A stretch of DNA of 64,000 bases from a virus (lineage: Duplodnaviria > Caudoviricetes): the IMG/VR virus record IMGVR_UViG_3300021376_000006. The stretch is one strand, 5' to 3'. Positions 10,618 to 33,027 of the stretch are shown in pieces; within the stretch, counting starts at the first letter, position 1, and each line of letters begins with the position of its first letter. The notes beneath the pieces were generated by a model. The model was not told where the DNA came from. It did not search any database and worked only from the letters and a program-made list of their open reading frames with translations. A program made the translations under genes and the position numbers.

Positions 10618-10620
10618 AAT

Positions 10621-10654: not shown

Positions 10655-10673
10655 CGCCTCACACGCGACTCAA

Positions 10674-16802: not shown

Positions 16803-17197
16803 GAAATTTCTGTTCTTCCATTTCCTAAATCATTGCGGTCTACTCTTCTTGGTCTAGCATCAACTGGTTGATTTGCTTCCCACTGTTCAAAATTTTCGTT
16901 TAGAATATTGCGACACACACTCTGAAACCATCTATCCACAATCTCAGCATCGGTATCATCCTTTTTCTGCATGTACCCAGCTTTTACTAATCTAGCAACA
17001 AATACTTCGTTCCAGTCAAGTTCAAACGAACCGTTCCCGACATCATCTGCATCAAGTTCTATGCTTAATACACTGATGTACGGCTCACCTGCCTCGGTGG
17101 CCTGTTCTTTGGCCGACTTTATACGTTTGCCTACAGGTTTTTTTGGTTCATCGTTTATTGCTTGACTTGATGCTTTCTTTTTCATCCAATTAAACAT
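16799..17197 (-). CDS. Hypothetical protein
   Basis: 132 aa ORF. Confidence 0.8.
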   Translation of the reverse strand: MFNWMKKKASSQAINDEPKKPVGKRIKSAKEQATEAGEPYISVLSIELDADDVGNGSFELDWNEVFVARLVKAGYMQKKDDTDAEIVDRWFQSVCRNILNENFEQWEANQPVDARPRRVDRNDLGNGRTEIS

Positions 17198-17399
17198 CTA
17201 CTTTTCCCCATTTAATTTTTAACCAAACACGTTCATGAATATAGTAATCTATACTTAACAAAACATGTAATGCAGTAGCAAAACCAGTACTTCGTCCGAC
17301 GTCGCTAATAAACAACCAAGTCCAAAAAATTGTAAATAGCCATGCCGTAATTCTATAGGTTAGCATTCTTGTAATTGTTCTAGTTTTCGTTTCGTTCAT
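17190..17399 (-). CDS. Small membrane protein, DUF2061-like
   Basis: KTRTITRMLTYR...YYIHERVWLKIKWG. Confidence 0.75.
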   Translation of the reverse strand: MNETKTRTITRMLTYRITAWLFTIFWTWLFISDVGRSTGFATALHVLLSIDYYIHERVWLKIKWGKVDV

Positions 17400-17592
17400 A
17401 TCTTAATAACCCTGATTCGTAATAAAGTGCAGTTAAATCTAAATATTCTAACCTATAGGTTACAAAGGAAGGACGCCAAAATCTTGCTGTTTTATCTAGC
17501 CTTACAGTTATTACCCTTTTGTTTATTCGAATAGACCAAACACAAGAAAATCTTGACTTACAATAATAAAAGTTTATATCATTTTTAGTCAT
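17380..17592 (-). CDS. Hypothetical protein
   Basis: Start reassigned to MTKND at 17592, overlapping the queE stop. Confidence 0.45.
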   Translation of the reverse strand: MTKNDINFYYCKSRFSCVWSIRINKRVITVRLDKTARFWRPSFVTYRLEYLDLTALYYESGLLRYERNEN

Positions 17593-18440
17593 CAAGTTCC
17601 CCATTCGTTTTTAAATAACGGTACTTGAAGTCTATCGCTGTATCGTAAACCATGTTTCATTGCTAACAGTGCAACGTTGCGGTTATTTAAAGTATATACA
17701 CTTTCAATACCTCCTACTGGCATAAGATAAATTGATCCTTTAAATCCTGCATTACGATACTGCTCTGTGGCTTTTAAAGCATCTGTGACATCTTCTTCGG
17801 TTGCCACAACAAACTTGAGATAGGTGTAACCAACAGTGGCATAATCGCACACAATGTTGGGTTTGATTGCATCTTCCCATGACTCTCCACTGACAGGTAG
17901 TTTTGCGCTTACACTGAATGTAACTTCTCTATCTCGAGACGCAGCAGTCCATTCGCCTAGATAATGTTTGAACTCTTTGGTTAGCTCTTGAGTACCGTTA
18001 GTTTCAAAAGTAATTTCTTTTAACTTTTGCATACGAGGATGATTCAGCAGATCTTCGTAACTACGCTGCCAACCTAGTAGAGGCTCGCCACCTGTAATAA
18101 CAAGATGTTCGTCCTTCCACTTGCTATGTGGAAGAATTTCCATAATTTGTTCCACAATTGCATCACTGGTTAGCATAGGACTAAGATCTTTGAATCTTGG
18201 ATCCCAGCTTGCATAACTGTCACAGCCTGTACTTACCAAAGGTAAATCATCGTATTTGTTGTAATAATGCACTCTTGCTGCTATATCTTCTACTTCTCTA
18301 CTTAGTTTTCCTCTAGGCATACCGAATCCTGCACATTTAAAGTTGCAACCAAATGTGCGAAGAAAGACACTAGGCACACCCATGTATCTGCCTTCGCCTT
18401 GGATTGAATAAAATAGTTCAGCTACTTTGATTTTACTCAT
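17592..18440 (-). CDS. queE: 7-carboxy-7-deazaguanine synthase (radical SAM)
   Basis: ELFYSIQGEG, VFLRTFGCNFKC...CDS (CxxxC with displaced third Cys), ITGGEPLL, ETNGT, LKFVV, RLQV. Confidence 0.92.
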   Translation of the reverse strand: MSKIKVAELFYSIQGEGRYMGVPSVFLRTFGCNFKCAGFGMPRGKLSREVEDIAARVHYYNKYDDLPLVSTGCDSYASWDPRFKDLSPMLTSDAIVEQIMEILPHSKWKDEHLVITGGEPLLGWQRSYEDLLNHPRMQKLKEITFETNGTQELTKEFKHYLGEWTAASRDREVTFSVSAKLPVSGESWEDAIKPNIVCDYATVGYTYLKFVVATEEDVTDALKATEQYRNAGFKGSIYLMPVGGIESVYTLNNRNVALLAMKHGLRYSDRLQVPLFKNEWGT

Positions 18441-18442
18441 GA

Positions 18443-18967
18443 TTATCCTTGGTAGGTTGCACTGTTAGCACCGTGCTCAAATACTTCTACACTTTTTATA
18501 CGCACAGTTGGATTGATTGGATAACGCAAAGCGTCACCGGCTAACAGTTCACTCATTTTGTCATAGCACATCTTGGCAAACATTTCGCACCCTACACCCG
18601 GAACAATGCGTAGATCACACAATGCACCTCGTTCGTATGGTTTAACTTGTTCTAAACTTCCGGTACCAGACATAGGCATGTTGCCCTGATGACTCATTCG
18701 TACAAAAAAATCTAGGTGAGGATCATCTTCGGCCACAATTAGAGTATGATCAAACATGTAGTCGGCCCATGACTTGAATTCTTTGAGACCTCCAAAGTCC
18801 ATGCACCAGTTTTTATCGTCTAGTGTATCACATTCAAATACCAGCCGAATGCCAATTGAATAACCGTGTAGCGTTGAACAATGGCTGTGTGTGGCACGCC
18901 ATTGTCTAAAGCAACAGCTGAGTCCTCGGTCGTTGCCATAAGTTTTTGTTGAGTAAAATTGTGCCAA
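18443..18967 (-). CDS. queD: 6-carboxy-5,6,7,8-tetrahydropterin synthase
   Basis: HSHCSTLHGY, DFGGLK, FDHT, CEMFA, VEVFEH; TTG start after AGGAG. Confidence 0.9.
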   Translation of the reverse strand: MAQFYSTKTYGNDRGLSCCFRQWRATHSHCSTLHGYSIGIRLVFECDTLDDKNWCMDFGGLKEFKSWADYMFDHTLIVAEDDPHLDFFVRMSHQGNMPMSGTGSLEQVKPYERGALCDLRIVPGVGCEMFAKMCYDKMSELLAGDALRYPINPTVRIKSVEVFEHGANSATYQG

Positions 18968-18976
18968 TTTAATTCT

Positions 18977-19043
18977 CCTATGTTAAATTTTAGCATAGGC
19001 CTGCAGAATTTGTAAAGCGGGATGAAGAGCCAGGAAGGCCGCT
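18977..19043 (-). promoter_or_regulatory. Structured 5' leader of queD with SD-sequestering hairpin and possible nested promoter
   Basis: AGCGG/CCGCU stem; CCUAUG/CAUAGG stem covering the SD; competing GGCCU/AGGCC pairing; TTTACA-N18-TAAAAT. Confidence 0.55.
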
Positions 19044-19053
19044 GTGTAAAGTT

Positions 19054-19233
19054 TTATTTATTAATGTATATGCAGTTAGCTGAAACTCTGTATCTATCTG
19101 ATTTCCAGGCTTGACGAACATAATCTCTTGTCTTTTCGCATTCTTCAAAATTTTGAGTTGGAAAACTTATAGAACCTCGAGATGATGGCACATTTGGATT
19201 AATTGCATGCAACATAATTATTAGAGTCCACAT
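19054..19233 (-). CDS. Small secreted or membrane protein with two Cys
   Basis: Start reassigned to MWTLIIML; TATAAATA at 19239-19246 immediately upstream. Confidence 0.65.
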   Translation of the reverse strand: MWTLIIMLHAINPNVPSSRGSISFPTQNFEECEKTRDYVRQAWKSDRYRVSANCIYINK

Positions 19234-19273
19234 AAAAATATTTATACTACAGTTTCCCAGGCATGTCTTTCCA

Positions 19274-19558
19274 TTACAGTTTGAATATTGTTGGCAGTAA
19301 CATACTGGCAGTACTAGCATCATCCCCGTGAAAGTGAAGTCTAGTACCGCCTGTGCCATTTTGGTGATGATGACAACGTTTTGCCTTGCCGTAACTAACA
19401 TATTTCACAATTTGTTCTCGACCACGACTGTCCCAAAATTTAGATTCAATTACAGTGCCGTCAATCATCTTGTACCACTCTATCATATCATCAGTGAGTT
19501 CGTCTACATCAATCCAGACCGCATACGTTACTGTGCAACCTGGTGGTAAAGCTATCAT
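19274..19558 (-). CDS. Hypothetical protein
   Basis: Start MIALPPG overlapping the PRTase stop; 3' end possibly frameshifted. Confidence 0.65.
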   Translation of the reverse strand: MIALPPGCTVTYAVWIDVDELTDDMIEWYKMIDGTVIESKFWDSRGREQIVKYVSYGKAKRCHHHQNGTGGTRLHFHGDDASTASMLLPTIFKL

Positions 19559-20103
19559 TGAGCCCACCACGTTTCCCAAGGAAAAACAACCCAACAAGGA
19601 TCATCGAGTTTGTTTATGTTGCGACCGCTATAGCTAATACCTTCGTAGCTGCTGGCTTCATTGTTTACAACAACTGCGAATCTTACATTACGGTTCCAGA
19701 TTGCCGACCATGCAGGATGATTGGGCAAGCAACTGCTCTGCCAATCTTGTCTAATCCATTCTAGTGTAGCACCTGAGTCATTGATGTCATCCACTATCAA
19801 TATTTTTTTTCGATAAGCAGGATCAGTGTCTGCATCACCTGAACCACGTTCGTCTTTGGGCACATAACCAAATGCCTGTTCGGCCATCCATAAATTACTT
19901 TCAGATTCCCCACCGTCACGCAAGCTCACTTTAAGTGTTTCACAAGGAACACCAAAGTAATGACTGATCATTACAGCAGGTTGCAATCCGCCCCGAGTTA
20001 TACCAACTACATAATCTGGACGCCAATTACTATTTGCAATATCTCTGCACAGTTTGTTGACCAAACCTTTGAATTCAGAATCTGAAATAATTAGTTGTTT
20101 CAT
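19555..20103 (-). CDS. Type I purine phosphoribosyltransferase (Gpt/Hpt-like)
   Basis: VVGITRGG, PRPP loop LIVDDINDSGATL, WVVFPWE. Confidence 0.9.
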   Translation of the reverse strand: MKQLIISDSEFKGLVNKLCRDIANSNWRPDYVVGITRGGLQPAVMISHYFGVPCETLKVSLRDGGESESNLWMAEQAFGYVPKDERGSGDADTDPAYRKKILIVDDINDSGATLEWIRQDWQSSCLPNHPAWSAIWNRNVRFAVVVNNEASSYEGISYSGRNINKLDDPCWVVFPWETWWAQ

Positions 20104-20291
20104 CAGTCTCTTTCCATAAGTGAAGCTTCTTTGATAAGTGCTACCAATTCATCCAAGGTGTTACACAAAATTTTTGCATTGGCCCAATCGCCATCTTCGG
20201 TGCGACCACCAGCTTCAAACATGAAACCGTTGTCATACATGCTGTCAGTAAAGCTGTCGTTGATTTTGTTTAATTTGTCTTCGATTTTCAT
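20103..20291 (-). CDS. Hypothetical protein
   Basis: 62 aa ORF with coupled overlaps. Confidence 0.65.
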   Translation of the reverse strand: MKIEDKLNKINDSFTDSMYDNGFMFEAGGRTEDGDWANAKILCNTLDELVALIKEASLMERD

Positions 20292-20515
20292 TTTAATCCT
20301 TTCTTGAGTTTATCTTCTTTCATGCCTTGTGCTATCATTTTTTTAAAAATTAATACCACTCTATTTTTCTCCTTTTCAGAGAGAAACTTTACCAACATCA
20401 ACTTGTCTTCGTAACTTTTTGCGTTGTCAAGAAATTCTTCAGGTACTGTAATTTTTGGTTTTTTTGGTTTGAATTTCTTGAGTTCAGCTTTGACATCTTT
20501 TTCTTCATCAGACAT
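20288..20515 (-). CDS. Hypothetical protein
   Basis: 75 aa ORF with AGGAG RBS. Confidence 0.65.
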   Translation of the reverse strand: MSDEEKDVKAELKKFKPKKPKITVPEEFLDNAKSYEDKLMLVKFLSEKEKNRVVLIFKKMIAQGMKEDKLKKGLK

Positions 20516-20542
20516 GACGGGCTCCTTTTAGCGTATTTAACG

Positions 20543-21238
20543 CTATCTGGGAGCAAATTCTTGTTGTAGTTTAACGTTGTCAAAAAATTCTTTTTTGGTT
20601 GCAGCATCGTCTTTGAATGCGCCTCTCAACACTGTTGTTTGGGTAAGACTGCTATGTGCCATAATGCCTCTATTCTCGCAGCAACCGTGCGTGGCTTGTA
20701 TATAAACTGCCACATCCTTACTTCCAGTTGCAAACTCAATTTCTCTGGCGATATCCATACATAGTTCTTCTTGAAGTGTGCCGCGCCGCGCACACCATTG
20801 TGCAATTCGCGTGTACTTCGAGAGACCAATGAGTTTGGGTCCAGCAATAATACCAATATAAGCAACACCCGACACAGGTTGATGATGATGGCTACAAACA
20901 CTTTTAAGTTCGCTTCGAACTACAAGCATTCCGTCGTATGCCCCATCAGTGTCATTTGGAAATGCAGTTGCGTTGGGTGTAGGATCATATCTACCTGCCA
21001 TCAATTCATAGTAATACATTTTGGCAAGACGTCTTGCTGTGCCTTTACTGTTGGGATCAGTTGCTCGGTCAATCAACAATGTATCTAGCACTTGTTCAAA
21101 AGCCTCTGTGGCTTCGTCAATCAACTGATCTCGATCTTCGTCATTCACATAACTGCTTATGTTGTCACCGGCCCAATATCTCTTGCCGTCTGCCTGCATC
21201 TGTTCTCTAATACGATCACTTACTCTTGTATATTTCAT
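20543..21238 (-). CDS. folE: GTP cyclohydrolase I
   Basis: TARRLAKMY, CSHHHQP, GLSKYTR, LQEEL, HGCCENRG. Confidence 0.95.
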   Translation of the reverse strand: MKYTRVSDRIREQMQADGKRYWAGDNISSYVNDEDRDQLIDEATEAFEQVLDTLLIDRATDPNSKGTARRLAKMYYYELMAGRYDPTPNATAFPNDTDGAYDGMLVVRSELKSVCSHHHQPVSGVAYIGIIAGPKLIGLSKYTRIAQWCARRGTLQEELCMDIAREIEFATGSKDVAVYIQATHGCCENRGIMAHSSLTQTTVLRGAFKDDAATKKEFFDNVKLQQEFAPR

Positions 21239-21850
21239 TTAATCTCCAATAATTGCGATATCTCTTAGATCTGGATATTCGTGATATTTAGGTTGTTCAT
21301 TCAGTGTTAGAAGTTTTTCTAAACCGATCCTTGCATCTTCGATAGTGGGGCGATAATGATAACCAACCTTGAAAACACGCTGTTCCTGCCACGGCAAGAA
21401 ATTGAGATTTCTTCCGTCATAGCGTTGTTGTAATAGTATATCATATGCCTCGTAATCGTCTAACAGTATAGCACCACCGTGGCCTATCTGTAAAGGTTTA
21501 TTATGACCAAAACTCAAACACTGCATCATACCAGGCCGATACATGCCGTCTTCCAATCTTCTAGCACTATCCCAAATGTCTGTTCCGTAAAATCTATACT
21601 CACCTGTCCATTTTTCTGGAACTAATTTGTATTCTATTCCTAACTTGTGCATGATCATTGGGATTGATAGATAGGTGTATGCGGTAAACTTGACTCGTTG
21701 AACCTTATTGTAGCGCAAACATAACTCAATCGCATGTGTACAGCAATCAGTCATTATGGCATAAGGTGCACCAGTTTTCTTTGCTAATAATTTTTCAAAT
21801 TGCGCTATTTCTTCAAAGGCCACGTGTGTACCATTTATAAGCTGAATCAA
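21239..21850 (-). CDS. Short DegT-family PLP protein
   Basis: DCCTHAIEL, DSARR, SFGHNKPLQIGHGGAIL; only 203 aa. Confidence 0.75.
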   Translation of the reverse strand: MIQLINGTHVAFEEIAQFEKLLAKKTGAPYAIMTDCCTHAIELCLRYNKVQRVKFTAYTYLSIPMIMHKLGIEYKLVPEKWTGEYRFYGTDIWDSARRLEDGMYRPGMMQCLSFGHNKPLQIGHGGAILLDDYEAYDILLQQRYDGRNLNFLPWQEQRVFKVGYHYRPTIEDARIGLEKLLTLNEQPKYHEYPDLRDIAIIGD

Positions 21851-22778
21851 CGATTTGGTTGATAGTTGAATAGTTAGGACGCCAGTTCAGTACTGATTGT
21901 GCTAGGCCAGCATCTGCAACTAGTTGATCCGGATCTCCGGGCCTACGTTCGCCTACGTGTAATTTTAACGGTCCATATTTTAATGTAATATAATCTACAA
22001 TTTCTTGATTGCTTATTCCGCTATTGGTTCCCAAATTAAACACTGCAAATTGCTGATCAGTGTTCCAATGTATAGCTCTATGATGTGCATCAGCTAAATC
22101 CCATACATGAATGTAATCTCTAATACAGGTTCGATCTGGTGTTGCAAAGTCTACACCGTTTAGAGTGAAAAATTCATCACGAATTTTAGATTCTAATAAT
22201 CTAGCAATGATGTGTCCTGCGCCCGGTGCTTGACCTAGGTCGTGATTGTAAGGTTCGGCACCGGCGGCGTTAAAGTATCTAAAACAAACACCAGGTAATC
22301 CGTATGCTTGGTTATAATTTTGAAGCACTACTTCAATAATATCTTTAGTGTGGCCGTATGGACTAATAGGTTTTATCCTGTCAGTTTCAACCAGTGGAAC
22401 ATGATCAGGGTTGCCGTACACACTAGCACTAGAACTAAAAAGAATAATCGGTTTCTTTTTATAATCCTTAACATGATTTAAAAATGTAATTGTCTTTGCT
22501 ACATTGTTATCATAATATTTTGCCGGATCTTCAACACTTTCTCTAACAGAGATATCCCCGGCACAATGTACAATGACATCGGGTTGTAATTCGTCTAACC
22601 ATAATAAACTTTGTTTAGATACATAGTCAGTATGTAAAAATCCATCAACATTTTTTAATGTGTGATCTCTACGCTCACTATCAATAACATACACACTTGA
22701 ATTTTTGTTGTGTTGTTTTAAATAGCGAGAAATGTGACTACCAATGTAGCCACATCCGCCTGTAATGACAATTTTCAT
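21813..22778 (-). CDS. galE: UDP-glucose 4-epimerase-like SDR
   Basis: ITGGCGYIGSH, FSSSASVYG, SPYGHTK, RYFNAAGA, RDYIHVWDLA. Confidence 0.88.
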   Translation of the reverse strand: MKIVITGGCGYIGSHISRYLKQHNKNSSVYVIDSERRDHTLKNVDGFLHTDYVSKQSLLWLDELQPDVIVHCAGDISVRESVEDPAKYYDNNVAKTITFLNHVKDYKKKPIILFSSSASVYGNPDHVPLVETDRIKPISPYGHTKDIIEVVLQNYNQAYGLPGVCFRYFNAAGAEPYNHDLGQAPGAGHIIARLLESKIRDEFFTLNGVDFATPDRTCIRDYIHVWDLADAHHRAIHWNTDQQFAVFNLGTNSGISNQEIVDYITLKYGPLKLHVGERRPGDPDQLVADAGLAQSVLNWRPNYSTINQIVDSAYKWYTRGL

Positions 22779-23971
22779 TAGTACTTGCTTTCGTGTGTGT
22801 GTTTACGATAGTCTGTACTCATTCGCAACCAGGATTCTCCGTTGCCTTGGAGAATATCGCAGATCCTATCAATAGTCGAGTCGTTCCACGCACTAAACTT
22901 GCCCATGTTGTTGTGCGGATGTTGTAAGAGGGGTACAAGTTTTTGTATTGCATCTCTAATCGACCACGGGACATAAAGTCTCTCGCTATCATTTGCAAAA
23001 GCTTCGGGGAAACTTCTGTAGGCGGGGTATAAAATATTAGCCCCAAGAGCGTCAGCTTCACTTGCTGTGTTCGAAACCCAATCCTGTAGAGCACAATTAA
23101 ACAATACTCGCGTATCCGTGAGTAATTCATAGTAATCATTCTTTTCAAGATCTTCATACACAGTCAGTTTGCCTTCGGCCTGCAGTCTACGTGTACGTTC
23201 CATGTAACTGCTATTGTTACTACGCAACTTGCTGCCGCTGAATACACAGAATTCTACCCGGGGCCAATCGTTATATGGCAATGTCTGCAGTCTATGATAT
23301 TCTTCGATTAGATCCATGTAGAAGTCTGGCTGCTTCTCTTGATCCCACCTAGCAGCAAAACCTACACGGTAAGCTCTATCTTCGAATCTTTTTAGATCTC
23401 CGGGTACACGACTGCGTACTTCGTCTTTACCAAACGCCAGTCCACTGATATTATACAGCCTACCCTGCCAGCCTGCAACCTTCATGTGCATGACCATTTC
23501 TTCATTAGTGGCAAGAATTATATCGGCAAACGAGTCGACCATCTTTTCATAGTGTCCCATCCATTCTTGCATACCCCATACATGAACAAAATCATCGGGG
23601 TCAATAGTTTGTGCAAGACAGCGAACGGCAATGCGAGGACGGCTACCAGCGTCCACTTGATCCAAAATGTAAGGTAGGCTTTCGATGCCGGGTTGAAACA
23701 TGTCCTCAAAGTATACAACATCTTCATTAGTAACTGCTCCTGCTTTCATTAGACGAATAAGATTCATAAGTTGGCTCATGCCAAAATATGTACGACCATG
23801 TGCATCAAGGACTTGACCAGTAACAATAGCTTGGTCATTGCTTAGTGTGTCGCCGGGCACAATTTCATAGTCGATGCCGCGGCGTTCAAACACTGCACGA
23901 TTCCATTCTTGTAATTGTAATGTATAACGTGCCTTATAAGGCTCTAGGCCCATGTACCATAATTTACGCAT
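22778..23971 (-). CDS. GT-B fold glycosyltransferase-like protein
   Basis: FAARWDQEKQP and FNCALQDWVSNTASEADALG...YP...SFPE resemble the GT4 nucleotide-sugar-binding domain. Confidence 0.65.
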   Translation of the reverse strand: MRKLWYMGLEPYKARYTLQLQEWNRAVFERRGIDYEIVPGDTLSNDQAIVTGQVLDAHGRTYFGMSQLMNLIRLMKAGAVTNEDVVYFEDMFQPGIESLPYILDQVDAGSRPRIAVRCLAQTIDPDDFVHVWGMQEWMGHYEKMVDSFADIILATNEEMVMHMKVAGWQGRLYNISGLAFGKDEVRSRVPGDLKRFEDRAYRVGFAARWDQEKQPDFYMDLIEEYHRLQTLPYNDWPRVEFCVFSGSKLRSNNSSYMERTRRLQAEGKLTVYEDLEKNDYYELLTDTRVLFNCALQDWVSNTASEADALGANILYPAYRSFPEAFANDSERLYVPWSIRDAIQKLVPLLQHPHNNMGKFSAWNDSTIDRICDILQGNGESWLRMSTDYRKHTHESKY

Positions 23972-24393
23972 TATTTTTCTCCTGTATCTGTAGCGACCTT
24001 GATATTTAGACCGCGTAGTGCGCTGTCAGGAATTTGTACTCTCGTTGACTTTTGAGCTATCACACTGTTCCAATATTCTTGTGCTCGATAGCCACCTTGT
24101 GTGAAATTCTTTTCAGGGTAAGAAAGTTGATTTTTCAATGATTGTACTTGATCATCAAGTCTTTTGATCCATCTCCAATGATCTTTTATGTCTTCTTGCA
24201 TTCTACGCAATGGCCCTTGAGCTCGAACATCTGCTTCATTATCTCCGCTATCAGTCAATATCACCATCATCATGAGTTGACGTAGTGCATTCTTTACTCT
24301 AGGATCATCGCTGGTCATTGCTCGATCAAACATTTCCGTCAAACGTTCTAGATCGAAGTTGGCTGCGTCTTTTTCTCTCATTGCTCCACTCAT
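23971..24393 (-). CDS. Hypothetical protein
   Basis: 140 aa ORF. Confidence 0.7.
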   Translation of the reverse strand: MSGAMREKDAANFDLERLTEMFDRAMTSDDPRVKNALRQLMMMVILTDSGDNEADVRAQGPLRRMQEDIKDHWRWIKRLDDQVQSLKNQLSYPEKNFTQGGYRAQEYWNSVIAQKSTRVQIPDSALRGLNIKVATDTGEK

Positions 24394-24611
24394 TGTACAC
24401 GATCCTTTTTAGCGTACCAATTCATCTTGGGCCATTTTCCACGTTGGGCACGATCAAACTCACCCCAGGGAGTTTTTTCATTGTATAGGTGTCTTTCATC
24501 ATACGGATATCCGTATGTGACACAAAATTCACGATATTTTTCAAGGTCGTCAAAAATTTGACTGACTTCAGGTTTCATAGTCAGGTATTTCTTGAGCCAT
24601 TTAGCGGCCAT
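24390..24611 (-). CDS. Hypothetical protein
   Basis: 73 aa ORF with AAGGAG RBS. Confidence 0.75.
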   Translation of the reverse strand: MAAKWLKKYLTMKPEVSQIFDDLEKYREFCVTYGYPYDERHLYNEKTPWGEFDRAQRGKWPKMNWYAKKDRVQ

Positions 24612-24621
24612 GTTTATCTCC

Positions 24622-25071
24622 TTAGATTTTTATTGAAAGAGAAGGTTGATGAGTTGCATAAGTTATGGAGCAGCCGTTTTCGTTGTCTTCGCTTACACTG
24701 ATTGTAACATTGCGTTCGGGATACCTGTTAGCGATTTGAACATATAAATCATCTGCAATCATTTCACAACTTTTGTGATCTAATTGCAATACAGCTTGGT
24801 CGCCCGAATACAATTGTTCGATCCAGCGTTTGAACTGGATGAATTCGATGTCTCTGTCATTGTGAAATACATCAATACTAATCCTAAAATGAAATATATG
24901 GCGATGAGGATGGCCAAGGAACGAAACGTCATATTTGTCTCCGGTTGCGAGTAGTGGATCGGTCAGTGCTGCTGGATATTGATGGATACCTTCTCGAGAA
25001 AAAGTAACCCAAATCTGTCTTTGAGCGTGGTGTAAAATTCTATCAACTGTTTCTCTTTGTGATTGGATCAT
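24622..25071 (-). CDS. QueD/PTPS-like T-fold protein (second, divergent copy)
   Basis: HPHRHIFHF His cluster, DIEF, SCEMIA, VSEDNENG parallel the QueD motif layout. Confidence 0.6.
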   Translation of the reverse strand: MIQSQRETVDRILHHAQRQIWVTFSREGIHQYPAALTDPLLATGDKYDVSFLGHPHRHIFHFRISIDVFHNDRDIEFIQFKRWIEQLYSGDQAVLQLDHKSCEMIADDLYVQIANRYPERNVTISVSEDNENGCSITYATHQPSLSIKI

Positions 25072-25664
25072 AATAAATTCAAGTTGTCAAAAGTTATTGT
25101 TTTAGTATAAATTCCAAATTGCAAATAGTCAATCAATTTGATTATCAAATCTGCGATTTGTGCGGTACTTTGTAATAGTTTATCTTTAGGTAATATACCG
25201 TTCAATGAATGTATAAAATTGGTGTCTAATAGAGCCGGATTAATTTCAATTATTTTTAATTGAGAATCAATTTGACGATGTATATCTATCATGTTTTTTT
25301 GTTTTCTTTTTTCTTCTATGTACTTTTTTTCTTTGGGATTGAAGTTTACGTAAAATGATTCAGGTTTGTCTACCAAGAAACTTCCTATGTGAATTATCAA
25401 TTTGTTTGGATCATATCGCCATACTTTTAAAATATATTTAAGAAGCATGGTTTGCCCAAACGCATCGTATGCGTTGTTAATAAAAACATCTGCCGATCGA
25501 CTTAATTGTAATATTTTTGCTATGGTACTAAGTTTACTAATGTCGTACCCATCAATGATATCATATCCTACAACTTGATTTTGACCAAAATTCTTATAAT
25601 ATTGTAGTCTGAGACAAAGAGCTTGCCCTAAGCCAGATTTATGGCCAGTTATAACCAATTTCAT
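25068..25664 (-). CDS. Short-chain dehydrogenase/reductase
   Basis: ITGHKSGLG, DVFINNA, YIEEK (YxxxK). Confidence 0.75.
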   Translation of the reverse strand: MKLVITGHKSGLGQALCLRLQYYKNFGQNQVVGYDIIDGYDISKLSTIAKILQLSRSADVFINNAYDAFGQTMLLKYILKVWRYDPNKLIIHIGSFLVDKPESFYVNFNPKEKKYIEEKRKQKNMIDIHRQIDSQLKIIEINPALLDTNFIHSLNGILPKDKLLQSTAQIADLIIKLIDYLQFGIYTKTITFDNLNLL

Positions 25665-26194
25665 TTAATTACTTCGTCTTTGGTATACTGTGACCAATCA
25701 GTAAATACACCGTCTCTACGCATCAGGCTGTGTACACTATGGCACCACACCCCAGGATTAGAATGTGCAAAATTAGTATCATCGATTTTTATTGTTGCAT
25801 TATATCCAAGCTGTTGTATATAGGGCAATTTAACCGATATCATTGGAATAAACTTTTGATATTCAACAAGAGTAGATTCTAGCAATCCTTCTACTTCTCT
25901 CACATCTATATCCAAAGTACACCAATAACCACGTCCTATAAAAGGCATGATCATATTTTCCCATCGTGTCCAATCTTGACTTGTAGCGCGACCTGTTGGA
26001 AAACTTTGGTTAGCACCAAAATATATGTGTTCAATTTTTTTGTTTACTTGGGTGAAAGGATCATTTAGTATCTGTTCAATGTCTTCAGTAGATTTCACTC
26101 CTGCTACAAAAAGAGTTTTCAAGCCATATGCTGGACTATGTTCTACTTCAGTGCCTAAAAACATAGTAACATCATTGTGTCCAGGTCTGTCCAT
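25661..26194 (-). CDS. Hypothetical protein within the deazaguanine cluster
   Basis: 177 aa ORF (GTEVEHSPAYG...HIYFGANQSF...NPGVWCH). Confidence 0.8.
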   Translation of the reverse strand: MDRPGHNDVTMFLGTEVEHSPAYGLKTLFVAGVKSTEDIEQILNDPFTQVNKKIEHIYFGANQSFPTGRATSQDWTRWENMIMPFIGRGYWCTLDIDVREVEGLLESTLVEYQKFIPMISVKLPYIQQLGYNATIKIDDTNFAHSNPGVWCHSVHSLMRRDGVFTDWSQYTKDEVIK

Positions 26195-26406
26195 TATTCA
26201 TCACCATATCCTGTTCGTTGAGTATCTTCTTCCCACTGCAACTTGCTTAGTTTGCTGATTTCGTCTTTAATCAACAACTTTTTCTTTTTCAATTCAGCTA
26301 AATGCTCCACATCAACACCAGGATGATTTGTTTGCATTTCTGTTATTTGTTTGTCGAGTAATTTATGCATTTCTTCTAAATGATTGATTCTACTTTTATA
26401 GCTCAT
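26194..26406 (-). CDS. Small coiled-coil protein, YdcH/DUF465-like
   Basis: HKLLDKQI...LKKKKLLIKDEI; start reassigned to 26406 after GGAGG. Confidence 0.7.
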   Translation of the reverse strand: MSYKSRINHLEEMHKLLDKQITEMQTNHPGVDVEHLAELKKKKLLIKDEISKLSKLQWEEDTQRTGYGDE

Positions 26407-26407
26407 A

Positions 26408-27952
26408 TTATTCCTCCAAATGAGTTTGCATAATTGTTTCTGCTTCGTCCTCAGACATTTCGTCTTCAACTTCTTCTACTGTTTCAAAAAGTGCATTAAA
26501 CATGGTATGACTGTTCTTTGTTTTTTTGCCTTTGAATCCTCTTGTGCCAACGATGTCCATCCAATAACTATCGTAGCGTTCAACAATTGCTTCGGCACTT
26601 GCACGATCAGGTGCAGAGAAAACAGCTTCAACAATGTCTCTGAATCTAGCATGGTCACCATTGACATTCCACAGCATGCTAGGTCGTTCTCCTGCATCAT
26701 ACGCTCTATTCGCTCGCTGAACTGATTCAATATGCATCCAAACATTGTGCCCCATCATTAATGCGTAACTAAAACTATCCCAACTGGTTCGACCTTCCTT
26801 GCCATTTTTATTCAGGTCACCGGGTTGATATATACAAACATCTTTAATTAGCAAATGTTTACTTATTGGACTGTCCTCAAATTGTTCAAAGATACCATCT
26901 TGTAATACCGCATCTCGAAACAGTCTAGTGTCTGTGGCGTATTTCTTGTCATCGGCACTGGGCTTCATTTTGTACGACCATTTACTATCGTGTTCAAGAC
27001 TAATGGCATGATACATCTGTCCATTGGCAGTAGCAAGAAACGGACTGGCGCAATCAAAACTGATTGTAAATGCTGGATTGACATACTTACGAACGGCTCG
27101 TTGAATGTCAGTTAGTAACAACGCCCATTCTAGTTTACTTGTTCCTAGAAAGTGCATCCAATCATGTACACCTTCTTGCAGTAGATTATCATATCTCAAT
27201 GCAACTAATCTTTTAAGAACAAGATGAATATCACACATGTTCTGACCGCCCATAGCCCAGCCATCAAAATGTGTATCTGGATATATGGTAGGATCGCAGA
27301 ACTGTTTCATTTCTTGATACCATTCTTCTGCCGAAGTATGATTGTCACCTTGAAGAACGTTTAGGAACTTAGCACCACCGTTGTTCTTTCCTTGACGGTG
27401 TTGCATAAAGTAATTGTTGTTAAACTTGGTAGCATCAACTGCTTCTTGGAGAGTAGTAATGCCGCAGGCCTTGCTTGCTTTCTTGTCATGGATAACCCAA
27501 GTTGGAATATCAAGAATCATACCATAGTCAGCAATACCGTCTAGCCATTTTAACACAGCCGAACGTTTCTTTTCAGCTTTTGAACACCCGCTATTGGCTT
27601 TCCAATCACCTTCCCACAAGCCCTTGGCAATCTGAAATCCGCCGGAGTCACCTAACATAAAGGTTCCAGGTTCTCTCTTGCGAACCATGTCTTCACTGGC
27701 ATCCTCTTTAGTAAGATCTAGGTTTGCGTGTCCTCCGGAGTAGAGATTCCATCTGTAGGGGAACAGGGCTTGTTGGCTGTTCAGCCAATTGAATTGCTCC
27801 ATGTCCTGTAATGCCTGTGGCATACGAGCAGGATCAACATAGTCATTGTTAACACGTTGTTTTCCTATAAAAGTTGCATAGAATCCAGATATAGCAGGCA
27901 AGAACACTGCATAATCTGATTGCTTTGCTGTTAAATTATCTTGGTTCGTCAT
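26408..27952 (-). CDS. Guanine transglycosylase (TGT/DpdA-like)
   Basis: DSGGFQ, LDIP, NVLQG, GWAMGG, HFLGTS, SFDCASP; located with folE/queD/queE. Confidence 0.8.
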   Translation of the reverse strand: MTNQDNLTAKQSDYAVFLPAISGFYATFIGKQRVNNDYVDPARMPQALQDMEQFNWLNSQQALFPYRWNLYSGGHANLDLTKEDASEDMVRKREPGTFMLGDSGGFQIAKGLWEGDWKANSGCSKAEKKRSAVLKWLDGIADYGMILDIPTWVIHDKKASKACGITTLQEAVDATKFNNNYFMQHRQGKNNGGAKFLNVLQGDNHTSAEEWYQEMKQFCDPTIYPDTHFDGWAMGGQNMCDIHLVLKRLVALRYDNLLQEGVHDWMHFLGTSKLEWALLLTDIQRAVRKYVNPAFTISFDCASPFLATANGQMYHAISLEHDSKWSYKMKPSADDKKYATDTRLFRDAVLQDGIFEQFEDSPISKHLLIKDVCIYQPGDLNKNGKEGRTSWDSFSYALMMGHNVWMHIESVQRANRAYDAGERPSMLWNVNGDHARFRDIVEAVFSAPDRASAEAIVERYDSYWMDIVGTRGFKGKKTKNSHTMFNALFETVEEVEDEMSEDEAETIMQTHLEE

Positions 27953-28559
27953 AAAAATCAAGGTTACTTATAAATTTGTAGTCGTTGTGATATGTAATAA
28001 TAATTTTAGATTTTAATTTAGGATCGTTGTCGATACGTGATTTGATAAATTTTATAACCTGGGCGTTATCGTAATTTGATTCTGATCTGTTATCTTCAAT
28101 GTTATCAAGTGTATTTAGATCATAGCCCAAGTAATGATTTATTTGTTGCTTTAAATTTTTGTTAAATCTAAAATATACTGGATCGTAATTCAAAATTTGT
28201 TGTATATATTTTAACTGAAAGTCAGTATGATCATCAAACACGATTTGATCAAAGATTATTCTTTCGGCTAAATGGTTGTAATCAGAAACAAAGTGATCAC
28301 TGCCATAGCCTGATCCTAGCAGGCGTAAAGAAGCGTAAGTACCAAATCCACTCAGCCATCTTTCTACAGGATCTCTTATTACCACCAAGCAATTTTTAAT
28401 AGCAATTGGTTGATCAATGATATTCCAGTGTGACCAAGAATTGTATTTCAACAAATTAGTTAAATAGGTGCTTGCATTTTTTGGAATATTGAGATAAAAT
28501 ATTTCCCGGTCAGGGGACAACATACCTCCGCCGGGAACATATCCTGTGTCTTTGATCAC
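27936..28559 (-). CDS. Sulfotransferase family protein
   Basis: IPKNAST (5'-PSB) and IRDPVERWLS (3'-PB) motifs. Confidence 0.75.
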   Translation of the reverse strand: MIKDTGYVPGGGMLSPDREIFYLNIPKNASTYLTNLLKYNSWSHWNIIDQPIAIKNCLVVIRDPVERWLSGFGTYASLRLLGSGYGSDHFVSDYNHLAERIIFDQIVFDDHTDFQLKYIQQILNYDPVYFRFNKNLKQQINHYLGYDLNTLDNIEDNRSESNYDNAQVIKFIKSRIDNDPKLKSKIIITYHNDYKFISNLDFYDEPR

Positions 28560-29282
28560 TTATTTTTGTTGAGCTGGTAGAATATAGTTGTATTCAGCAA
28601 TGCCACTGTCGACAGTGATCATGGCTGCACCTTCGTCACTGAACTTGATAGTTTTGTCGCCTGACAAAGATAGGATACTAATTACGGCACTCACTGGCCA
28701 AGACCATGCTTTGGTCAACGATCCTTGAACACTGTGTTGAAACACAAAGTTACCACTGTGGCTGCTGTGATCACCAAAGTAGAAAACCAAGTTGCTGTTA
28801 TCGACCTTGGCAATAAATGTTGTTTCTTCGCTGTTGGCTTGAGCCTGGAACTTCATGCGTTGAATAGCTGCCACAGTGGGTTCAATATCCACTCCCCACT
28901 TGACACCTTTAAATTTTACAGTCTTTAATTTGTCATTGACAATAGCTGCAAGCATAAAACGATAATCGTTTTTGAAATCACCCGCATTGTTTTCAAAATG
29001 TACTCCATTTGGAATTCCATCATCTTTTTTCGTGATTGTTAATTTCGCATCATCTCTATACTCAGGGATATTCAATATAGTGTTTAGTTTGGCCAAGTTA
29101 GGCATACCAAATGTGCCAATGAATTCAGGAACTGGATTATGAAATTGTGCCTGCACAATTACTGTGCGTTCTTCGCTGACTGCTTCGATAATGGTCTGGC
29201 CATCTGACCCTGTAATTTTAACCAGATCAATAATGCCTAAACTGTGAGTATGTTGTACGATATCTTGTAAATAATCTTTCAT
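28560..29282 (-). CDS. Putative DNA sliding clamp (gp45-like)
   Basis: 240 aa beta-rich two-domain protein near polB; clamp loader elsewhere in window; inferred from size and context. Confidence 0.55.
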   Translation of the reverse strand: MKDYLQDIVQHTHSLGIIDLVKITGSDGQTIIEAVSEERTVIVQAQFHNPVPEFIGTFGMPNLAKLNTILNIPEYRDDAKLTITKKDDGIPNGVHFENNAGDFKNDYRFMLAAIVNDKLKTVKFKGVKWGVDIEPTVAAIQRMKFQAQANSEETTFIAKVDNSNLVFYFGDHSSHSGNFVFQHSVQGSLTKAWSWPVSAVISILSLSGDKTIKFSDEGAAMITVDSGIAEYNYILPAQQK

Positions 29283-29305
29283 GTTGAATCTCCAATAATG
29301 TTAAA

Positions 29306-29334
29306 ATTTTACTATTGATTTTTGCTAATGTCAA
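29306..29334 (-). promoter_or_regulatory. Sigma70-type promoter
   Basis: TTGACA-N17-TAAAAT, GGAG RBS downstream. Confidence 0.75.
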
Positions 29335-30263: not shown

Positions 30264-30295
30264 TGAATAACATAAGTAATTTGTAACTGTACTAT

Positions 30296-32956: not shown

Positions 32957-32967
32957 CTATTCTCCTT

Positions 32968-33021: not shown

Positions 33022-33027
33022 TGATAT

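What the first reader, a model, noticed from the sequence alone, without database searches (positions are those of the whole stretch)
17592..27952. 7-deazaguanine DNA-modification cluster lacking QueC, with sugar-transfer genes embedded
Seen: queE, queD, folE and a TGT/DpdA-like gene within about 10 kb, with a PRTase, short DegT, GalE, GT-B, second T-fold protein, SDR and an unknown ORF between them, followed by sulfotransferase, clamp, methyltransferase and polB. No queC, queF or gat-queC in the window. Established: FolE-QueD-QueE convert GTP to 7-carboxy-7-deazaguanine (CDG); QueC is needed for preQ0; phage DpdA enzymes put deazaguanines into DNA against restriction. Inference: the genome carries CDG or a further-decorated derivative made by a pathway not yet described.
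Basis: partly seen in the sequence, partly recalled or inferred. Interest (0 to 1): 0.82.

Follow-up and report, generated by a model that had tools for sequence, protein, structure and literature searches.

The report
QueC-less deazaguanine DNA module with glycosyltransferase
A large lake-water phage carries a known type of gene set (DpdL type) that most likely swaps guanine in its DNA for 7-deazaguanine, and a sugar-transferring enzyme that travels only with this gene set hints that the new base may carry a sugar, which nobody has yet looked for.

Summary
On the minus strand, 17592-27952 encodes QueE, QueD, a PRTase, FolE, a 203-aa DegT-like protein, GalE, a GT-B glycosyltransferase, a second QueD-like protein and a 514-aa protein whose model has the tRNA-guanine transglycosylase fold. 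No QueC, QueF or Gat-QueC is in the window.

The second T-fold protein is DpdL, the proposed CDG decarboxylase published in 2023 (PMC10516641). Cellulophaga phage phiST has FolE, QueD, QueE, DpdL and a DpdA, lacks QueC, and has all dG replaced by 2'-deoxy-7-deazaguanosine. The missing QueC is therefore already explained, and plain CDG is not the likeliest base.

What is not explained is the glycosyltransferase. Its family occurs in 6 of 12 cultured DpdL phage lineages and in two metagenomic lineages. It always lies in the deazaguanine cluster and usually next to dpdL. I found it in no phage record without DpdL. Lineage-specific nucleotide-sugar genes ride along. No DNA of a phage with this glycosyltransferase has been analysed by mass spectrometry; PA5oct DNA resists G-site restriction enzymes.

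Verdict: a new variant of a known kind, testable in PA5oct, ACP17 or BUCT-ZZ01. First-stage notes of this scan report the same layout on other genomes; I did not check them.

The parts
26408..27952 (-). DpdA-type DNA (deaza)guanine transglycosylase candidate, 514 aa from the ATG at 27952 (the ORF opens at TTG 27961)
   Evidence: GDSGGFQ motif. AF2 model pLDDT 90.8. The 50 best PDB matches are all tRNA-guanine transglycosylase, probability 1.0, E 4e-7. BFVD matches are phage TGT/DpdA-like proteins. hhalign to the DpdA-like proteins of ACP17, BUDD and BUCT-ZZ01 gives 94-97%. D102, S103, G105, H267, G270 and D300 are invariant in 60 homologues.
24622..25071 (-). DpdL, a QueD-like T-fold protein and the proposed 7-carboxy-7-deazaguanine decarboxylase
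   Evidence: Motif LGHPHRHIF fits LxxxHRHxF. tblastn: phiST CGPG_00067 35%, E 2e-10; ACP17 53%, E 6e-34; PA5oct 53.5%. phrog_17812, E 5e-35.
22778..23971 (-). GT4-like GT-B glycosyltransferase (o397); acceptor unknown
   Evidence: AF2 model pLDDT 85. Foldseek matches BshA, MshA, glycogen synthase and OtsA at probability 1.0. 36 of 54 family members hit PF00534. Among phage records, homologues occur only in phages with DpdL, inside the deazaguanine cluster.
25661..26194 (-). o177, a conserved protein of unknown fold with many invariant polar residues
   Evidence: No family or PDB match. Homologues occur only in PA5oct-like phages and ACP17 and in the lake and marine lineages, between dpdA and dpdL. 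Invariant residues include E16, E18, H56, N62, D95, D138 and D139.
20543..21238 (-). FolE, GTP cyclohydrolase I
   Evidence: PF01227, E 5e-38.
18443..18967 (-). QueD, 6-carboxytetrahydropterin synthase, with CxxxHGY in place of CxxxHGH
   Evidence: PF01242, 57 bits. The HGY variant is shared with the QueD proteins of phiST, ACP17 and BUCT-ZZ01.
17592..18440 (-). QueE, CDG synthase (radical SAM), with cysteine spacing CxxxC-x36-C
   Evidence: phrog_2076, E 3.6e-52. NCBIfam QueE models match below cut-off. Alignment with six phage QueE proteins.
19555..20103 (-). Gpt-like purine phosphoribosyltransferase
   Evidence: PF00156, 45 bits; the best NCBIfam match is xanthine PRTase. PRTase genes also lie in the deazaguanine clusters of PA5oct, BUCT-ZZ01 and the marine lineage.
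21813..22778 (-). GalE-like NDP-sugar 4-epimerase
   Evidence: PF01370, E 5e-44. Found downstream of the GT in most (43) of the 80 related loci. PA5oct has a 172-aa relative of its N-terminal half in its own cluster.
21239..21850 (-). Short DegT-like protein, 203 aa
   Evidence: PF01041, E 1.2e-12, over profile positions 163-240 only. Conserved at 53-88% identity in 37 related loci.
25068..25664 (-). SDR-like protein, 198 aa; a variable accessory
   Evidence: No family hit. Rossmann and YxxxK motifs were read by eye. Present in 2 of 80 related loci.
23971..24611 (-). Two small ORFs between dpdL and the GT: o140 (23971-24393) and o73 (24390-24611)
   Evidence: o73 is conserved in 60 of 80 related loci and in the marine lineage at the same position. 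o140 is in 17 of 80. Their function is unknown.
26194..26469 (-). DUF465 protein
   Evidence: PF04325, E 2e-11. A DUF465 gene lies at the same place in the marine locus L091.
27936..28559 (-). Weak sulfotransferase-like protein; a variable accessory
   Evidence: PF03567, 21.8 bits against a cut-off of 22. Present in 27 of 80 related loci.
28560..29282 (-).
   Evidence: phrog_12062, unknown function. 34-37% identical homologues lie at the same place in PA5oct and Vibrio phage 2.275.O. A promoter-like site TTGACA-17-TAAAAT at 29334-29306 lies just upstream, but the region's count of such sites is at chance level.
29331..30263 (-). Class I SAM methyltransferase; a conserved neighbour
   Evidence: PF08242, PF13649 and PF08241. 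Present in 75 of 80 related loci, at 22-80% identity among the 40 loci printed.
30296..32956 (-). Family B DNA polymerase (context)
   Evidence: PF00136 and PF03104. 42-47% identical to the PolB of PA5oct and of Vibrio phage 2.275.O.

Best explanation
This is a DpdL-type, QueC-independent 7-deazaguanine DNA-modification module of a roughly 350-kb freshwater myovirus.

Proposed pathway:
1. FolE, QueD and QueE turn GTP into 7-carboxy-7-deazaguanine (CDG). This follows from established family functions.
2. DpdL removes the carboxyl group to give 7-deazaguanine (DG). This step is proposed in the literature but has not been shown biochemically.
3. The 514-aa TGT-fold DpdA-type enzyme exchanges guanine in phage DNA for the deazaguanine base. 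This is inferred from family behaviour.
4. The result is DNA that resists G-dependent restriction.

The Gpt-like PRTase most simply recycles the released guanine into GMP and GTP, the pathway's own precursor (inference).

This variant also contains a GT4 glycosyltransferase, fed by GalE-type nucleotide-sugar genes, and a conserved 177-aa protein. The gene pattern says they belong to the pathway, but their chemical step is unknown.
For: - Gene identities are established.
- The DpdL signature motif and homology to phiST and ACP17 DpdL are shown.
- phiST has the same core set, and dDG replaces all its dG, with no dCDG (PMC10516641).
- QueC is absent above cut-off from the complete genomes of five cultured DpdL phages, from five related contigs of 112-225 kb and from the window.
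- The long DpdA family sits beside alternative deazaguanine pathways in other lineages: QueC, QueF and Gat in Vibrio phage 2.275.O, and QueC in the P0245 lineage. That fits an inserting enzyme whose substrate varies.
- The gene order PolB, methyltransferase, 240-aa protein, dpdA, o177, dpdL, GT, GalE, DegT-like, FolE is conserved across the related IMG/VR loci examined (40 of the 80 were printed) and in a marine sister lineage.
Against: - DpdL's decarboxylase activity has never been demonstrated. Co-expressing DpdL with DpdA from phiST or from ACP17 in E. coli gave no dDG.
- This DpdA is not a clear member of phiST's DpdA3 subfamily (hhalign 59.8%, Foldseek E 9e-3), so its substrate cannot be transferred from phiST.
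- No member of the long DpdA family has been assayed.
- The strict association of the GT with DpdL suggests that plain dDG may not be the end product here.
- The rest of the genome could not be searched for QueC.
- No chemical data exist for this phage. It is known only from lake-water metagenome contigs.
Confidence: 0.6

Rival explanations
1. The final DNA base is a sugar-decorated 7-deazaguanine. After, or instead of, simple decarboxylation, the GT4 enzyme uses a phage-made NDP-sugar (GalE here; cytidylyltransferase, phosphomannomutase and epimerase in the marine lineage). It glycosylates the deazaguanine as free base, as nucleotide or in DNA. This extends the best explanation rather than excluding it.
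For: - Among 50,697 phage records, the GT family is found only in phages with DpdL.
- The profile search finds it in PA5oct, Phosso and BCSR5. It finds none in phiST, RHph_I1_18, Bakedbeans, Ahp1, D479, MA9V-3 or the QueC-type Vibrio phage 2.275.O.
- The GT lies next to dpdL, or one to two small genes away, in the lake lineage, the marine lineage, ACP17, PA5oct, BUCT-ZZ01 and Phosso. In Phosso the dpdA-like gene lies about 170 kb away.
- The genes are translationally coupled here.
- Nucleotide-sugar genes differ between lineages but are always nearby.
- Close relatives insert B12-type and SPASM-type radical SAM genes in the same cluster, which suggests a tailoring hot spot.
- A GT that puts GlcNAc on N2 of a 7-deazapurine is proposed for huimycin on gene-cluster evidence (PMC7439116).
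Against: - Unsubstituted 7-deazaguanine has no hydroxyl group, so the acceptor atom is unclear.
- An N2 sugar in the minor groove would hinder transcription and replication (my inference).
- Half of the DpdL lineages manage without the GT, and phiST has plain dDG.
- This genome carries many other glycan genes, so GalE and the DegT-like gene could serve another pathway.
- No glycosylated deazaguanine has been reported in DNA in the literature searched.
Confidence: 0.35
2. The base enters DNA through the nucleotide pool, before replication. The PRTase couples CDG or DG to PRPP, as TubE does in tubercidin synthesis. The ribonucleotide is decarboxylated, phosphorylated and reduced to the dNTP, and the phage PolB incorporates it. 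DpdA plays only a minor or proofreading role.
For: - A PRTase lies in the cluster here and in PA5oct, BUCT-ZZ01 and the marine lineage, where a HIT-family protein lies next to it.
- TubE uses CDG plus PRPP (PMC6112128).
- The module sits beside PolB.
- The window also encodes a MazG pyrophosphohydrolase at 59407-59841, and phiST has a MazG inside its cluster.
Against: - A DpdA-type enzyme was found in every DpdL cluster in which I looked for one (the window, PA5oct, ACP17, BUDD, BUCT-ZZ01, phiST, MA9V-3, Phosso elsewhere in its genome, and the marine and L093 loci), and the literature reads this as post-replicative insertion. I did not look for a dpdA in RHph_I1_18, Bakedbeans, Ahp1 or D479.
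- No PRTase was found in the fetched cluster regions of ACP17, BUDD, BCSR5 or phiST.
- The PRTase resembles xanthine-guanine salvage enzymes, which fits recycling of released guanine equally well.
Confidence: 0.15
3. One reading: the pathway stops at CDG and the DNA carries 2'-deoxy-7-carboxy-7-deazaguanosine.
For: - FolE, QueD and QueE are present and QueC is absent.
- dCDG does exist in nature, at 0.04% of G in Sulfolobus virus STSV-2.
Against: - A DpdL with the full signature motif is present and conserved.
- phiST has the same core set, and no dCDG was detected in its DNA.
Confidence: 0.07
4. The module acts on RNA or makes a small molecule. The TGT-fold enzyme modifies phage or host tRNA, or the genes make a soluble glycosylated deazapurine, and the DNA is unmodified.
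For: - The fold is shared with tRNA-guanine transglycosylases.
- First-stage notes, which I did not check, say the genome carries a tRNA array.
- GT plus PRTase plus the CDG genes resembles actinomycete deazapurine antibiotic clusters.
Against: - All phage DpdA subfamilies tested so far insert into DNA.
- The gene lies in the PolB block in every lineage of the long DpdA family examined (the window and IMG/VR loci, PA5oct, Vibrio phage 2.275.O, the P0245 context, the marine loci) except Phosso, where it lies among primase and helicase genes.
- PA5oct DNA is restriction-resistant at G-containing sites.
Confidence: 0.05

Closest known systems
Cellulophaga phage phiST dDG system: FolE, QueD, QueE, DpdL, DpdA3 (Cui, Hutinet et al., NAR 2023, PMC10516641)
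   Same: - It has FolE, QueD (with the same CxxxHGY variant), QueE and DpdL with LxxxHRHxF.
- It has a TGT-superfamily DpdA and no QueC.
- The cluster lies next to the DNA polymerase gene.
   Different: - phiST's DpdA3 is 259 aa and only marginally similar to the 514-aa protein here.
- phiST has CGPG_00066 and a MazG in its cluster.
- phiST has no GT4 (whole genome, profile search). No o177, PRTase or nucleotide-sugar gene was found in its 20-kb cluster locus.
- Only phiST has chemical data.
Pseudomonas jumbo phage PA5oct locus EST35_0316 to EST35_0322
   Same: - It holds the closest cultured homologue of the DpdA-type protein (35% identity, 540 aa), directly after PolB and the 240-aa protein.
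- It is followed by the GT4, DpdL, an SDR or epimerase-like fragment, a PRTase and QueE.
- An o177 homologue lies elsewhere in the genome.
- Its DNA resists G-site restriction enzymes.
   Different: - No FolE or QueD lies in the cluster.
- Its DpdL motif is HFH rather than HRH.
- It has no full GalE or DegT-like gene.
- The identity of its modified base has not been determined.
Acidovorax phage ACP17, Xanthomonas phage BUDD, Burkholderia phage BCSR5, Synechococcus phage BUCT-ZZ01 and Sinorhizobium phage Phosso clusters
   Same: - In all five, a DpdL and a GT4 of the same family lie in the deazaguanine cluster. QueD, FolE, QueE and a DpdA-like protein are also in the cluster in ACP17 and BUCT-ZZ01.
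- In BUDD and BCSR5 one of QueD or FolE was not seen in the fetched locus. For Phosso only DpdL and the adjacent GT were examined.
- BUCT-ZZ01's GT is 62% identical to the one here, and that phage also has the PRTase. ACP17 also has o177.
   Different: - Their DpdA-like proteins are shorter (416-446 aa) and detectable only by profile comparison.
- The accessory genes differ, for example a second GT in BUCT-ZZ01 and a PAPS-reductase-like protein in BUDD.
Phage DpdA1 and DpdA2 systems with QueC (9g, CAjan, Vibrio nt-1; dPreQ0, dG+)
   Same: - They use a TGT-superfamily enzyme plus FolE, QueD and QueE, and serve as protection against restriction.
- The long DpdA family here also pairs with QueC in other lineages.
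- The model matches a Vibrio nt-1 protein, R9TGF0, at E 9e-9. I did not confirm that this protein is nt-1's DpdA2.
   Different: QueC is replaced by DpdL, so the product cannot be preQ0-derived unless the host supplies it.
Actinomycete deazapurine pathways: tubercidin (TubE PRTase acting on CDG) and huimycin (a GT acting on a 7-deazapurine N2)
   Same: - The CDG-forming genes are combined with a PRTase or a glycosyltransferase.
- Tubercidin biosynthesis likewise ends in a deazapurine with no substituent at C7.
   Different: - Those pathways make soluble antibiotics, have no DpdA, and use a UbiD-type decarboxylase rather than a T-fold protein.
- I did not test for homology between the enzymes here and TubE or HuiG.

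Membership tests
DpdL (proposed CDG decarboxylase, QueD paralogue) | Homology to phiST CGPG_00067 and ACP17 DpdL | tested here: met
   tblastn: phiST 35.5%, E 2e-10; ACP17 52.9%, E 6e-34. phrog_17812, E 5e-35.
DpdL (proposed CDG decarboxylase, QueD paralogue) | Signature LxxxHRHxF in place of QueD's CxxxHGH | tested here: met
   The sequence reads LGHPHRHIF. It aligns with the same motif in phiST, ACP17, RHph_I1_18, BUDD and BUCT-ZZ01.
DpdL (proposed CDG decarboxylase, QueD paralogue) | Occurs with FolE, QueD, QueE and a DpdA, and without QueC | tested here: met
   Shown for the window. QueC is absent above cut-off from five complete DpdL phage genomes and five related contigs. The whole genome of this phage was not searchable.
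DpdL (proposed CDG decarboxylase, QueD paralogue) | Decarboxylates CDG to 7-deazaguanine | not testable with these tools
   This is also unproven in the literature: heterologous expression gave no dDG.
TGT/DpdA superfamily | TGT-type barrel fold | tested here: met
   The AF2 model (pLDDT 90.8) has TGT as its 50 best PDB matches, probability 1.0 and TM 0.47-0.55 by target. BFVD matches are phage TGT/DpdA proteins.
TGT/DpdA superfamily | DSGG(F/Y)Q motif containing the catalytic Asp | tested here: met
   GDSGGFQ is present. D102, S103 and G105 are invariant, and G104 and Q107 are at least 90% conserved, in 60 homologues. The assignment of the Asp's role rests on my recollection of Z. mobilis TGT.
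TGT/DpdA superfamily | Second catalytic Asp (the nucleophile) after the last barrel strand | tested here: inconclusive
   The invariant D300 in the SFDCASP motif aligns with the SYDS motif of the ACP17, BUDD and BUCT-ZZ01 DpdA-like proteins. I had no residue-level superposition on a solved TGT.
TGT/DpdA superfamily | Match to Pfam TGT (PF01702) | tested here: not met
   No hit for the protein or for any of 60 homologues. The ACP17, BUDD and phiST DpdA proteins also have no hit by hmmscan. The literature detects these only with HHpred.
DpdA3 subfamily (phiST CGPG_00065 type) | Clear homology to phiST DpdA3 | tested here: inconclusive
   hhalign gives 59.8%, E 9e-5, over 83 columns. Foldseek gives E 9e-3. 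The protein is twice as long, and is closer to the proteins of Vibrio phage 2.275.O, Motura and nt-1. I do not file it under DpdA3.
TGT/DpdA superfamily | Acts on DNA and inserts a 7-deazaguanine | not testable with these tools
   The support is indirect: the gene's place in the PolB block and the restriction resistance of PA5oct DNA.
QueE (CDG synthase) | Family match and a radical SAM cysteine triad | tested here: inconclusive
   phrog_2076, E 3.6e-52. NCBIfam QueE equivalogs score 39-59 bits, far below their cut-offs of 200-300. The triad reads CxxxC-x36-C rather than CxxxCxxC, as in the PA5oct, BUCT-ZZ01, BUDD and Vibrio 2.275.O QueE proteins.
QueD (CPH4 synthase) | PTPS family match and CxxxHGH motif | tested here: inconclusive
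   PF01242 is above cut-off. The motif is CSTLHGY, with Tyr for the last His, as in the QueD proteins of phiST, ACP17 and BUCT-ZZ01. phiST makes dDG, so this variant is presumably active.
GT4 / GT-B glycosyltransferases | Two-Rossmann GT-B fold and a Glycos_transf_1 C-terminal domain | tested here: met
   Foldseek matches at probability 1.0 and TM 0.6-0.7. PF00534 is hit by 36 of 54 family members, though not by this protein itself. A profile search hits PDB 8xsg, a putative glycosyltransferase, at E 1e-5.
tRNA-queuosine mannosyltransferase (QTMAN, PF12038) | QTMAN_N domain | tested here: not met
   The only signal is language-model feature similarity at ranks 52 and 64. There is no PF12038 hit in 54 members at E up to 1. 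The structure searches return generic GT4 enzymes.
T4-type DNA glucosyltransferases acting on hydroxymethylpyrimidines | A hydroxymethyl-pyrimidine pathway and similarity to T4 alpha-GT or beta-GT | tested here: not met
   No T4 GT is among the 50 best PDB matches. The only thymidylate-synthase-family gene found in the window matches the ThyA family strongly (PF00303, E 1e-105), and no dCMP or dUMP hydroxymethylase was seen in the ORFs scanned.

The most novel reading that the evidence does not exclude
In the GT-bearing half of the DpdL systems, guanine in virion DNA is replaced by a glycosylated, and perhaps further tailored, 7-deazaguanine. This group includes the present, very abundant freshwater jumbo-phage lineage, its marine sister lineage, PA5oct, ACP17 and BUCT-ZZ01. 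The sugar would be added by the DpdL-linked GT4 from a phage-made NDP-sugar. That would be the first sugar-bearing purine analogue in any natural DNA. The lineage-specific donor genes and the radical SAM inserts would then generate a family of such bases.
Probability: 0.35. Interest if true: 0.85.

Novelty: new variant of a known kind. Interest (0 to 1): 0.62.

Why it matters
- **The missing QueC is ordinary.** It is the published DpdL route to 7-deazaguanine.
- **Unrecognised pathway components.** In about half of its lineages the DpdL route comes with a dedicated GT4 glycosyltransferase. It often also comes with a 177-aa protein and a PRTase. The 2023 study of DpdL (PMC10516641) does not discuss any of them. 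These may be the 'other unknown enzymes' whose absence made heterologous reconstitution of dDG fail.
- **A possible new DNA base.** They may equally signal a new sugar-decorated purine analogue in DNA.
- **Abundance.** Both the DpdA-type protein and the GT have thousands of 75-93% identical relatives in metagenomes. The modification could therefore affect how well lake and marine phage DNA is cut, cloned or read by nanopore.
- **Directly testable.** Cultured phages with the same module exist: PA5oct, ACP17 and BUCT-ZZ01.

Tried and rejected
- **Near-identical DNA in GenBank phages:** none.
- **Whole-genome search for QueC:** impossible, because no genome is held.
- **Sequence searches for the DpdA-type protein:** Pfam, PHROG, NCBIfam and PDB-sequence searches, alone and as a 60-sequence profile, gave nothing. 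Only folding revealed the family.
- **QTMAN idea for the GT:** I recalled a motif resemblance, and an Atlas feature search gave weak hits. Pfam and the structure searches did not bear it out, so I dropped it.
- **The 370-aa neighbour of dpdA in Vibrio phage 2.275.O:** it is not a GT of this family (hhalign 0.1%).
- **o177:** no family, PDB or Atlas assignment.
- **Sequencing runs:** 24 lake-water metagenome runs from 2018 hold the stretch, but only as assembled contigs. No raw or nanopore reads and no RNA holder were listed, so no read-level signal of modification could be examined and I did not use read laying.
- **RNA and regulatory signals in 17000-33500:** Rfam found nothing. Promoter-like and terminator-like sites are at chance level.
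- **Complex prediction:** not used. I do not claim that any two of these proteins bind.
- **Isoelectric points:** all are acidic, including the DpdA-type protein, so they say nothing about DNA binding.
- **Supplementary tables of PMC10516641:** not held. I therefore could not see how its authors class the ACP17 DpdA, or whether PA5oct is listed.

Full report
**1. What is there**

The stretch 17.5-33 kb is one block of minus-strand genes. Most are joined by overlapping or abutting stop and start codons. In transcription order they are:
- PolB (30296-32956)
- a class I SAM methyltransferase (29331-30263)
- a conserved 240-aa protein (28560-29282)
- a weak sulfotransferase-like protein (27936-28559)
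- a 514-aa protein with no family hit (26408-27952)
- a DUF465 protein
- a 177-aa unknown protein (o177)
- a 198-aa SDR-like protein
- a 149-aa QueD-like protein (24622-25071)
- two small ORFs
- a 397-aa protein with no family hit (22778-23971)
- GalE
- a 203-aa DegT-like protein
- FolE
- two small ORFs
- a Gpt-like PRTase
- QueD
- QueE

**2. The TGT-like gene**

Sequence methods fail on the 514-aa protein, even with a 60-sequence profile. It does carry GDSGGFQ. Its family is large: 924 clusters at 50% identity. D102, S103, G105, H267, G270 and D300 are invariant.

An AlphaFold2 model has pLDDT 90.8. Its 50 best PDB matches are all tRNA-guanine transglycosylase, at probability 1.0. In the viral structure library it matches phage proteins annotated as TGT or queuine ribosyltransferase and a Vibrio nt-1 protein. 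It matches phiST's DpdA3 only at E 9e-3.

Profile comparison links it to the DpdA-like proteins of ACP17 (96.8%), BUDD (96.4%) and BUCT-ZZ01 (94%). The link to phiST DpdA3 is weak, at 59.8%. I therefore call it a DpdA-type member of the TGT superfamily and do not assign it to DpdA3.

Its relatives sit beside different deazaguanine pathways. Vibrio phage 2.275.O has QueF, a YhhQ-like transporter, QueC, a glutamine-amidotransferase-type protein (annotated 'nucleophile aminohydrolase'), FolE and QueE (QueE by blastp). A 46%-identical metagenomic lineage has QueC. This is the pattern expected of the enzyme that inserts the base.

**3. Why QueC is missing**

The 149-aa protein reads LGHPHRHIF. This is the LxxxHRHxF signature that replaces QueD's CxxxHGH in DpdL (PMC10516641). 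It is homologous to phiST CGPG_00067 (E 2e-10), to ACP17 DpdL (E 6e-34) and to 26 other phage records.

In phiST the set FolE, QueD, QueE, DpdL and DpdA3 occurs without QueC. It goes with complete replacement of dG by 2'-deoxy-7-deazaguanosine, and no dCDG was detected.

QueC is absent above cut-off in three places:
- the complete genomes of PA5oct, ACP17, phiST, BUCT-ZZ01 and BUDD
- five related IMG/VR contigs of 112-225 kb
- the window itself

The missing QueC is thus a property of a described system, not a gap. Two caveats apply. DpdL's activity has never been shown, and co-expression with DpdA gave no dDG. I also could not search the rest of this genome.

**4. The sugar genes**

The 397-aa protein folds with pLDDT 85 as a GT4-type GT-B enzyme. 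BshA, MshA, glycogen synthase and OtsA match at probability 1.0. Of 54 family members, 36 hit PF00534.

Its distribution is the main new point.
- tblastn against 50,697 phage records finds it only in phages with DpdL: BUCT-ZZ01 (62% identity), ACP17, the PA5oct group, and BUDD and X1.
- A profile search of whole genomes adds Phosso and BCSR5.
- The same profile finds none in phiST, RHph_I1_18, Bakedbeans, Ahp1, D479 or MA9V-3, nor in the QueC-type Vibrio phage 2.275.O.

So 6 of 12 cultured DpdL lineages have the GT, and it is always inside the deazaguanine cluster. In Phosso it directly follows dpdL even though the dpdA-like gene lies about 170 kb away.

Across the IMG/VR relatives examined (80 fetched; gene orders printed for 40), the order dpdA, o177, dpdL, o73, GT, GalE, DegT-like, FolE is kept. 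A marine sister lineage (DpdA 62% identical) keeps the same positions. Its GT is the ACP17-like branch of the family, and its sugar genes differ: a cytidylyltransferase, a phosphomannomutase and an epimerase. PA5oct has an epimerase-like fragment and a PRTase in its cluster.

Close relatives also insert B12-type and SPASM-type radical SAM genes into the cluster.

Within one lineage, conserved gene order is inheritance and proves little. Recurrence across eight distant lineages, together with exclusivity to DpdL, is real evidence that the GT works in this pathway. The GalE and DegT-like genes are less certain. This genome holds many other glycan genes.

**5. Other parts**

- **o177.** Its only phage-record homologues are in PA5oct-like phages and ACP17. 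It has many invariant acidic and histidine residues and no recognisable family. It looks like an enzyme of unknown type.
- **PRTase.** It is closest to xanthine-guanine PRTases. Two roles are plausible: recycling the guanine that base exchange releases into GTP (my inference), or coupling CDG or DG to PRPP as TubE does.
- **SDR-like and sulfotransferase-like genes.** These are variable accessories, present in 2 and 27 of 80 loci respectively.

**6. Experimental anchor**

Mass spectrometry exists only for phiST, which lacks the GT. [quoted passage not shown] The window comes from 2018 lake-water metagenomes that are available only as contigs, so no read-level test was possible.

**7. Verdict**

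- **Core:** a DpdL-type 7-deazaguanine DNA-modification module. The kind is known and this is a new member. Confidence is about 0.6 for DG made through DpdL and inserted by the DpdA-type enzyme.
- **Variant:** a long DpdA, a DpdL-linked GT4, o177 and a PRTase, none of which is discussed in the main text of the 2023 DpdL study (PMC10516641).
- **Most novel reading not excluded:** a glycosylated deazaguanine in DNA, at about 0.35.
- **Earlier notes:** first-stage notes of this scan describe the same dpdA, dpdL, GT, galE, folE layout on several other genomes. I did not check them, but they agree with what I saw in the IMG/VR and metagenome loci.

Noticed in passing
window 17592-18440: This QueE lacks the canonical CxxxCxxC. 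The third cysteine lies about 36 residues downstream (CNFKC...GCDS). The same long insertion is in the QueE proteins of PA5oct, BUCT-ZZ01, BUDD and Vibrio phage 2.275.O. ACP17 has the canonical spacing and phiST has a short insertion.
   Followed up: partly
window 18443-18967: QueD reads CSTLHGY, with Tyr in place of the last His of the CxxxHGH zinc motif. The QueD proteins of phiST, ACP17, RHph_I1_18 and BUCT-ZZ01 share this HGY form. It may mark the QueD clade that works with DpdL.
   Followed up: partly
L014:7391-12853, L056:11780-13324, L054:4033-5610: Close relatives (DpdA 76-86% identical) carry one to three extra radical SAM genes inside the deazaguanine cluster. They are of the B12-binding type, the SPASM type and a plain type. 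They could be further tailoring enzymes or mobile cassettes.
   Followed up: partly
L091:2660-3852 and L092:2076-3963: The marine sister lineage has a cytidylyltransferase-like gene, a phosphomannomutase (L092 only) and an epimerase between PolB and the 240-aa protein. The lake phage has a methyltransferase and a sulfotransferase-like gene there. A HIT-family gene follows the PRTase.
   Followed up: no
contig context of P0245 (no DNA returned): A lineage whose DpdA is 46% identical has PolB split by an intein-like ORF. The order is then the 240-aa protein, DpdA, a 285-aa protein and QueC. This is the QueC-type counterpart of the same gene block.
   Followed up: no
window 915-5442: The window contains further sugar and auxiliary genes: an NDP-sugar epimerase (915-1889), a methyltransferase (1886-2518), a ThyA-family thymidylate synthase (3815-4729) and a GDSL-like hydrolase (4726-5442).
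   Followed up: partly
window 46460-49629: The phage encodes a ClpB-like double-AAA chaperone (764 aa) directly followed by a DnaJ (288 aa).
   Followed up: no
window 59407-59841: A MazG-type nucleotide pyrophosphohydrolase (PF03819, E 5e-9) lies about 31 kb from the cluster. phiST has a MazG inside its cluster. It could help shape the dGTP pool.
   Followed up: no
window 9001-11777: A DUF2201 metallopeptidase/VWA-like protein (9001-10248) lies next to a MoxR-like AAA ATPase (10674-11777).
   Followed up: no
window 34245-35985 and 42876-44096: A class III aminotransferase (384 aa) is followed by an alpha/beta-hydrolase-like protein. A 406-aa protein has a cytidylyltransferase-like N-terminus. 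These are more candidate small-molecule or sugar enzymes outside the cluster.
   Followed up: no
L007:9010-10353: Synechococcus phage BUCT-ZZ01 has a second, different GT (447 aa, Glyco_trans_1_4) between FolE and its DpdA-like gene, in addition to the GT next to dpdL.
   Followed up: partly
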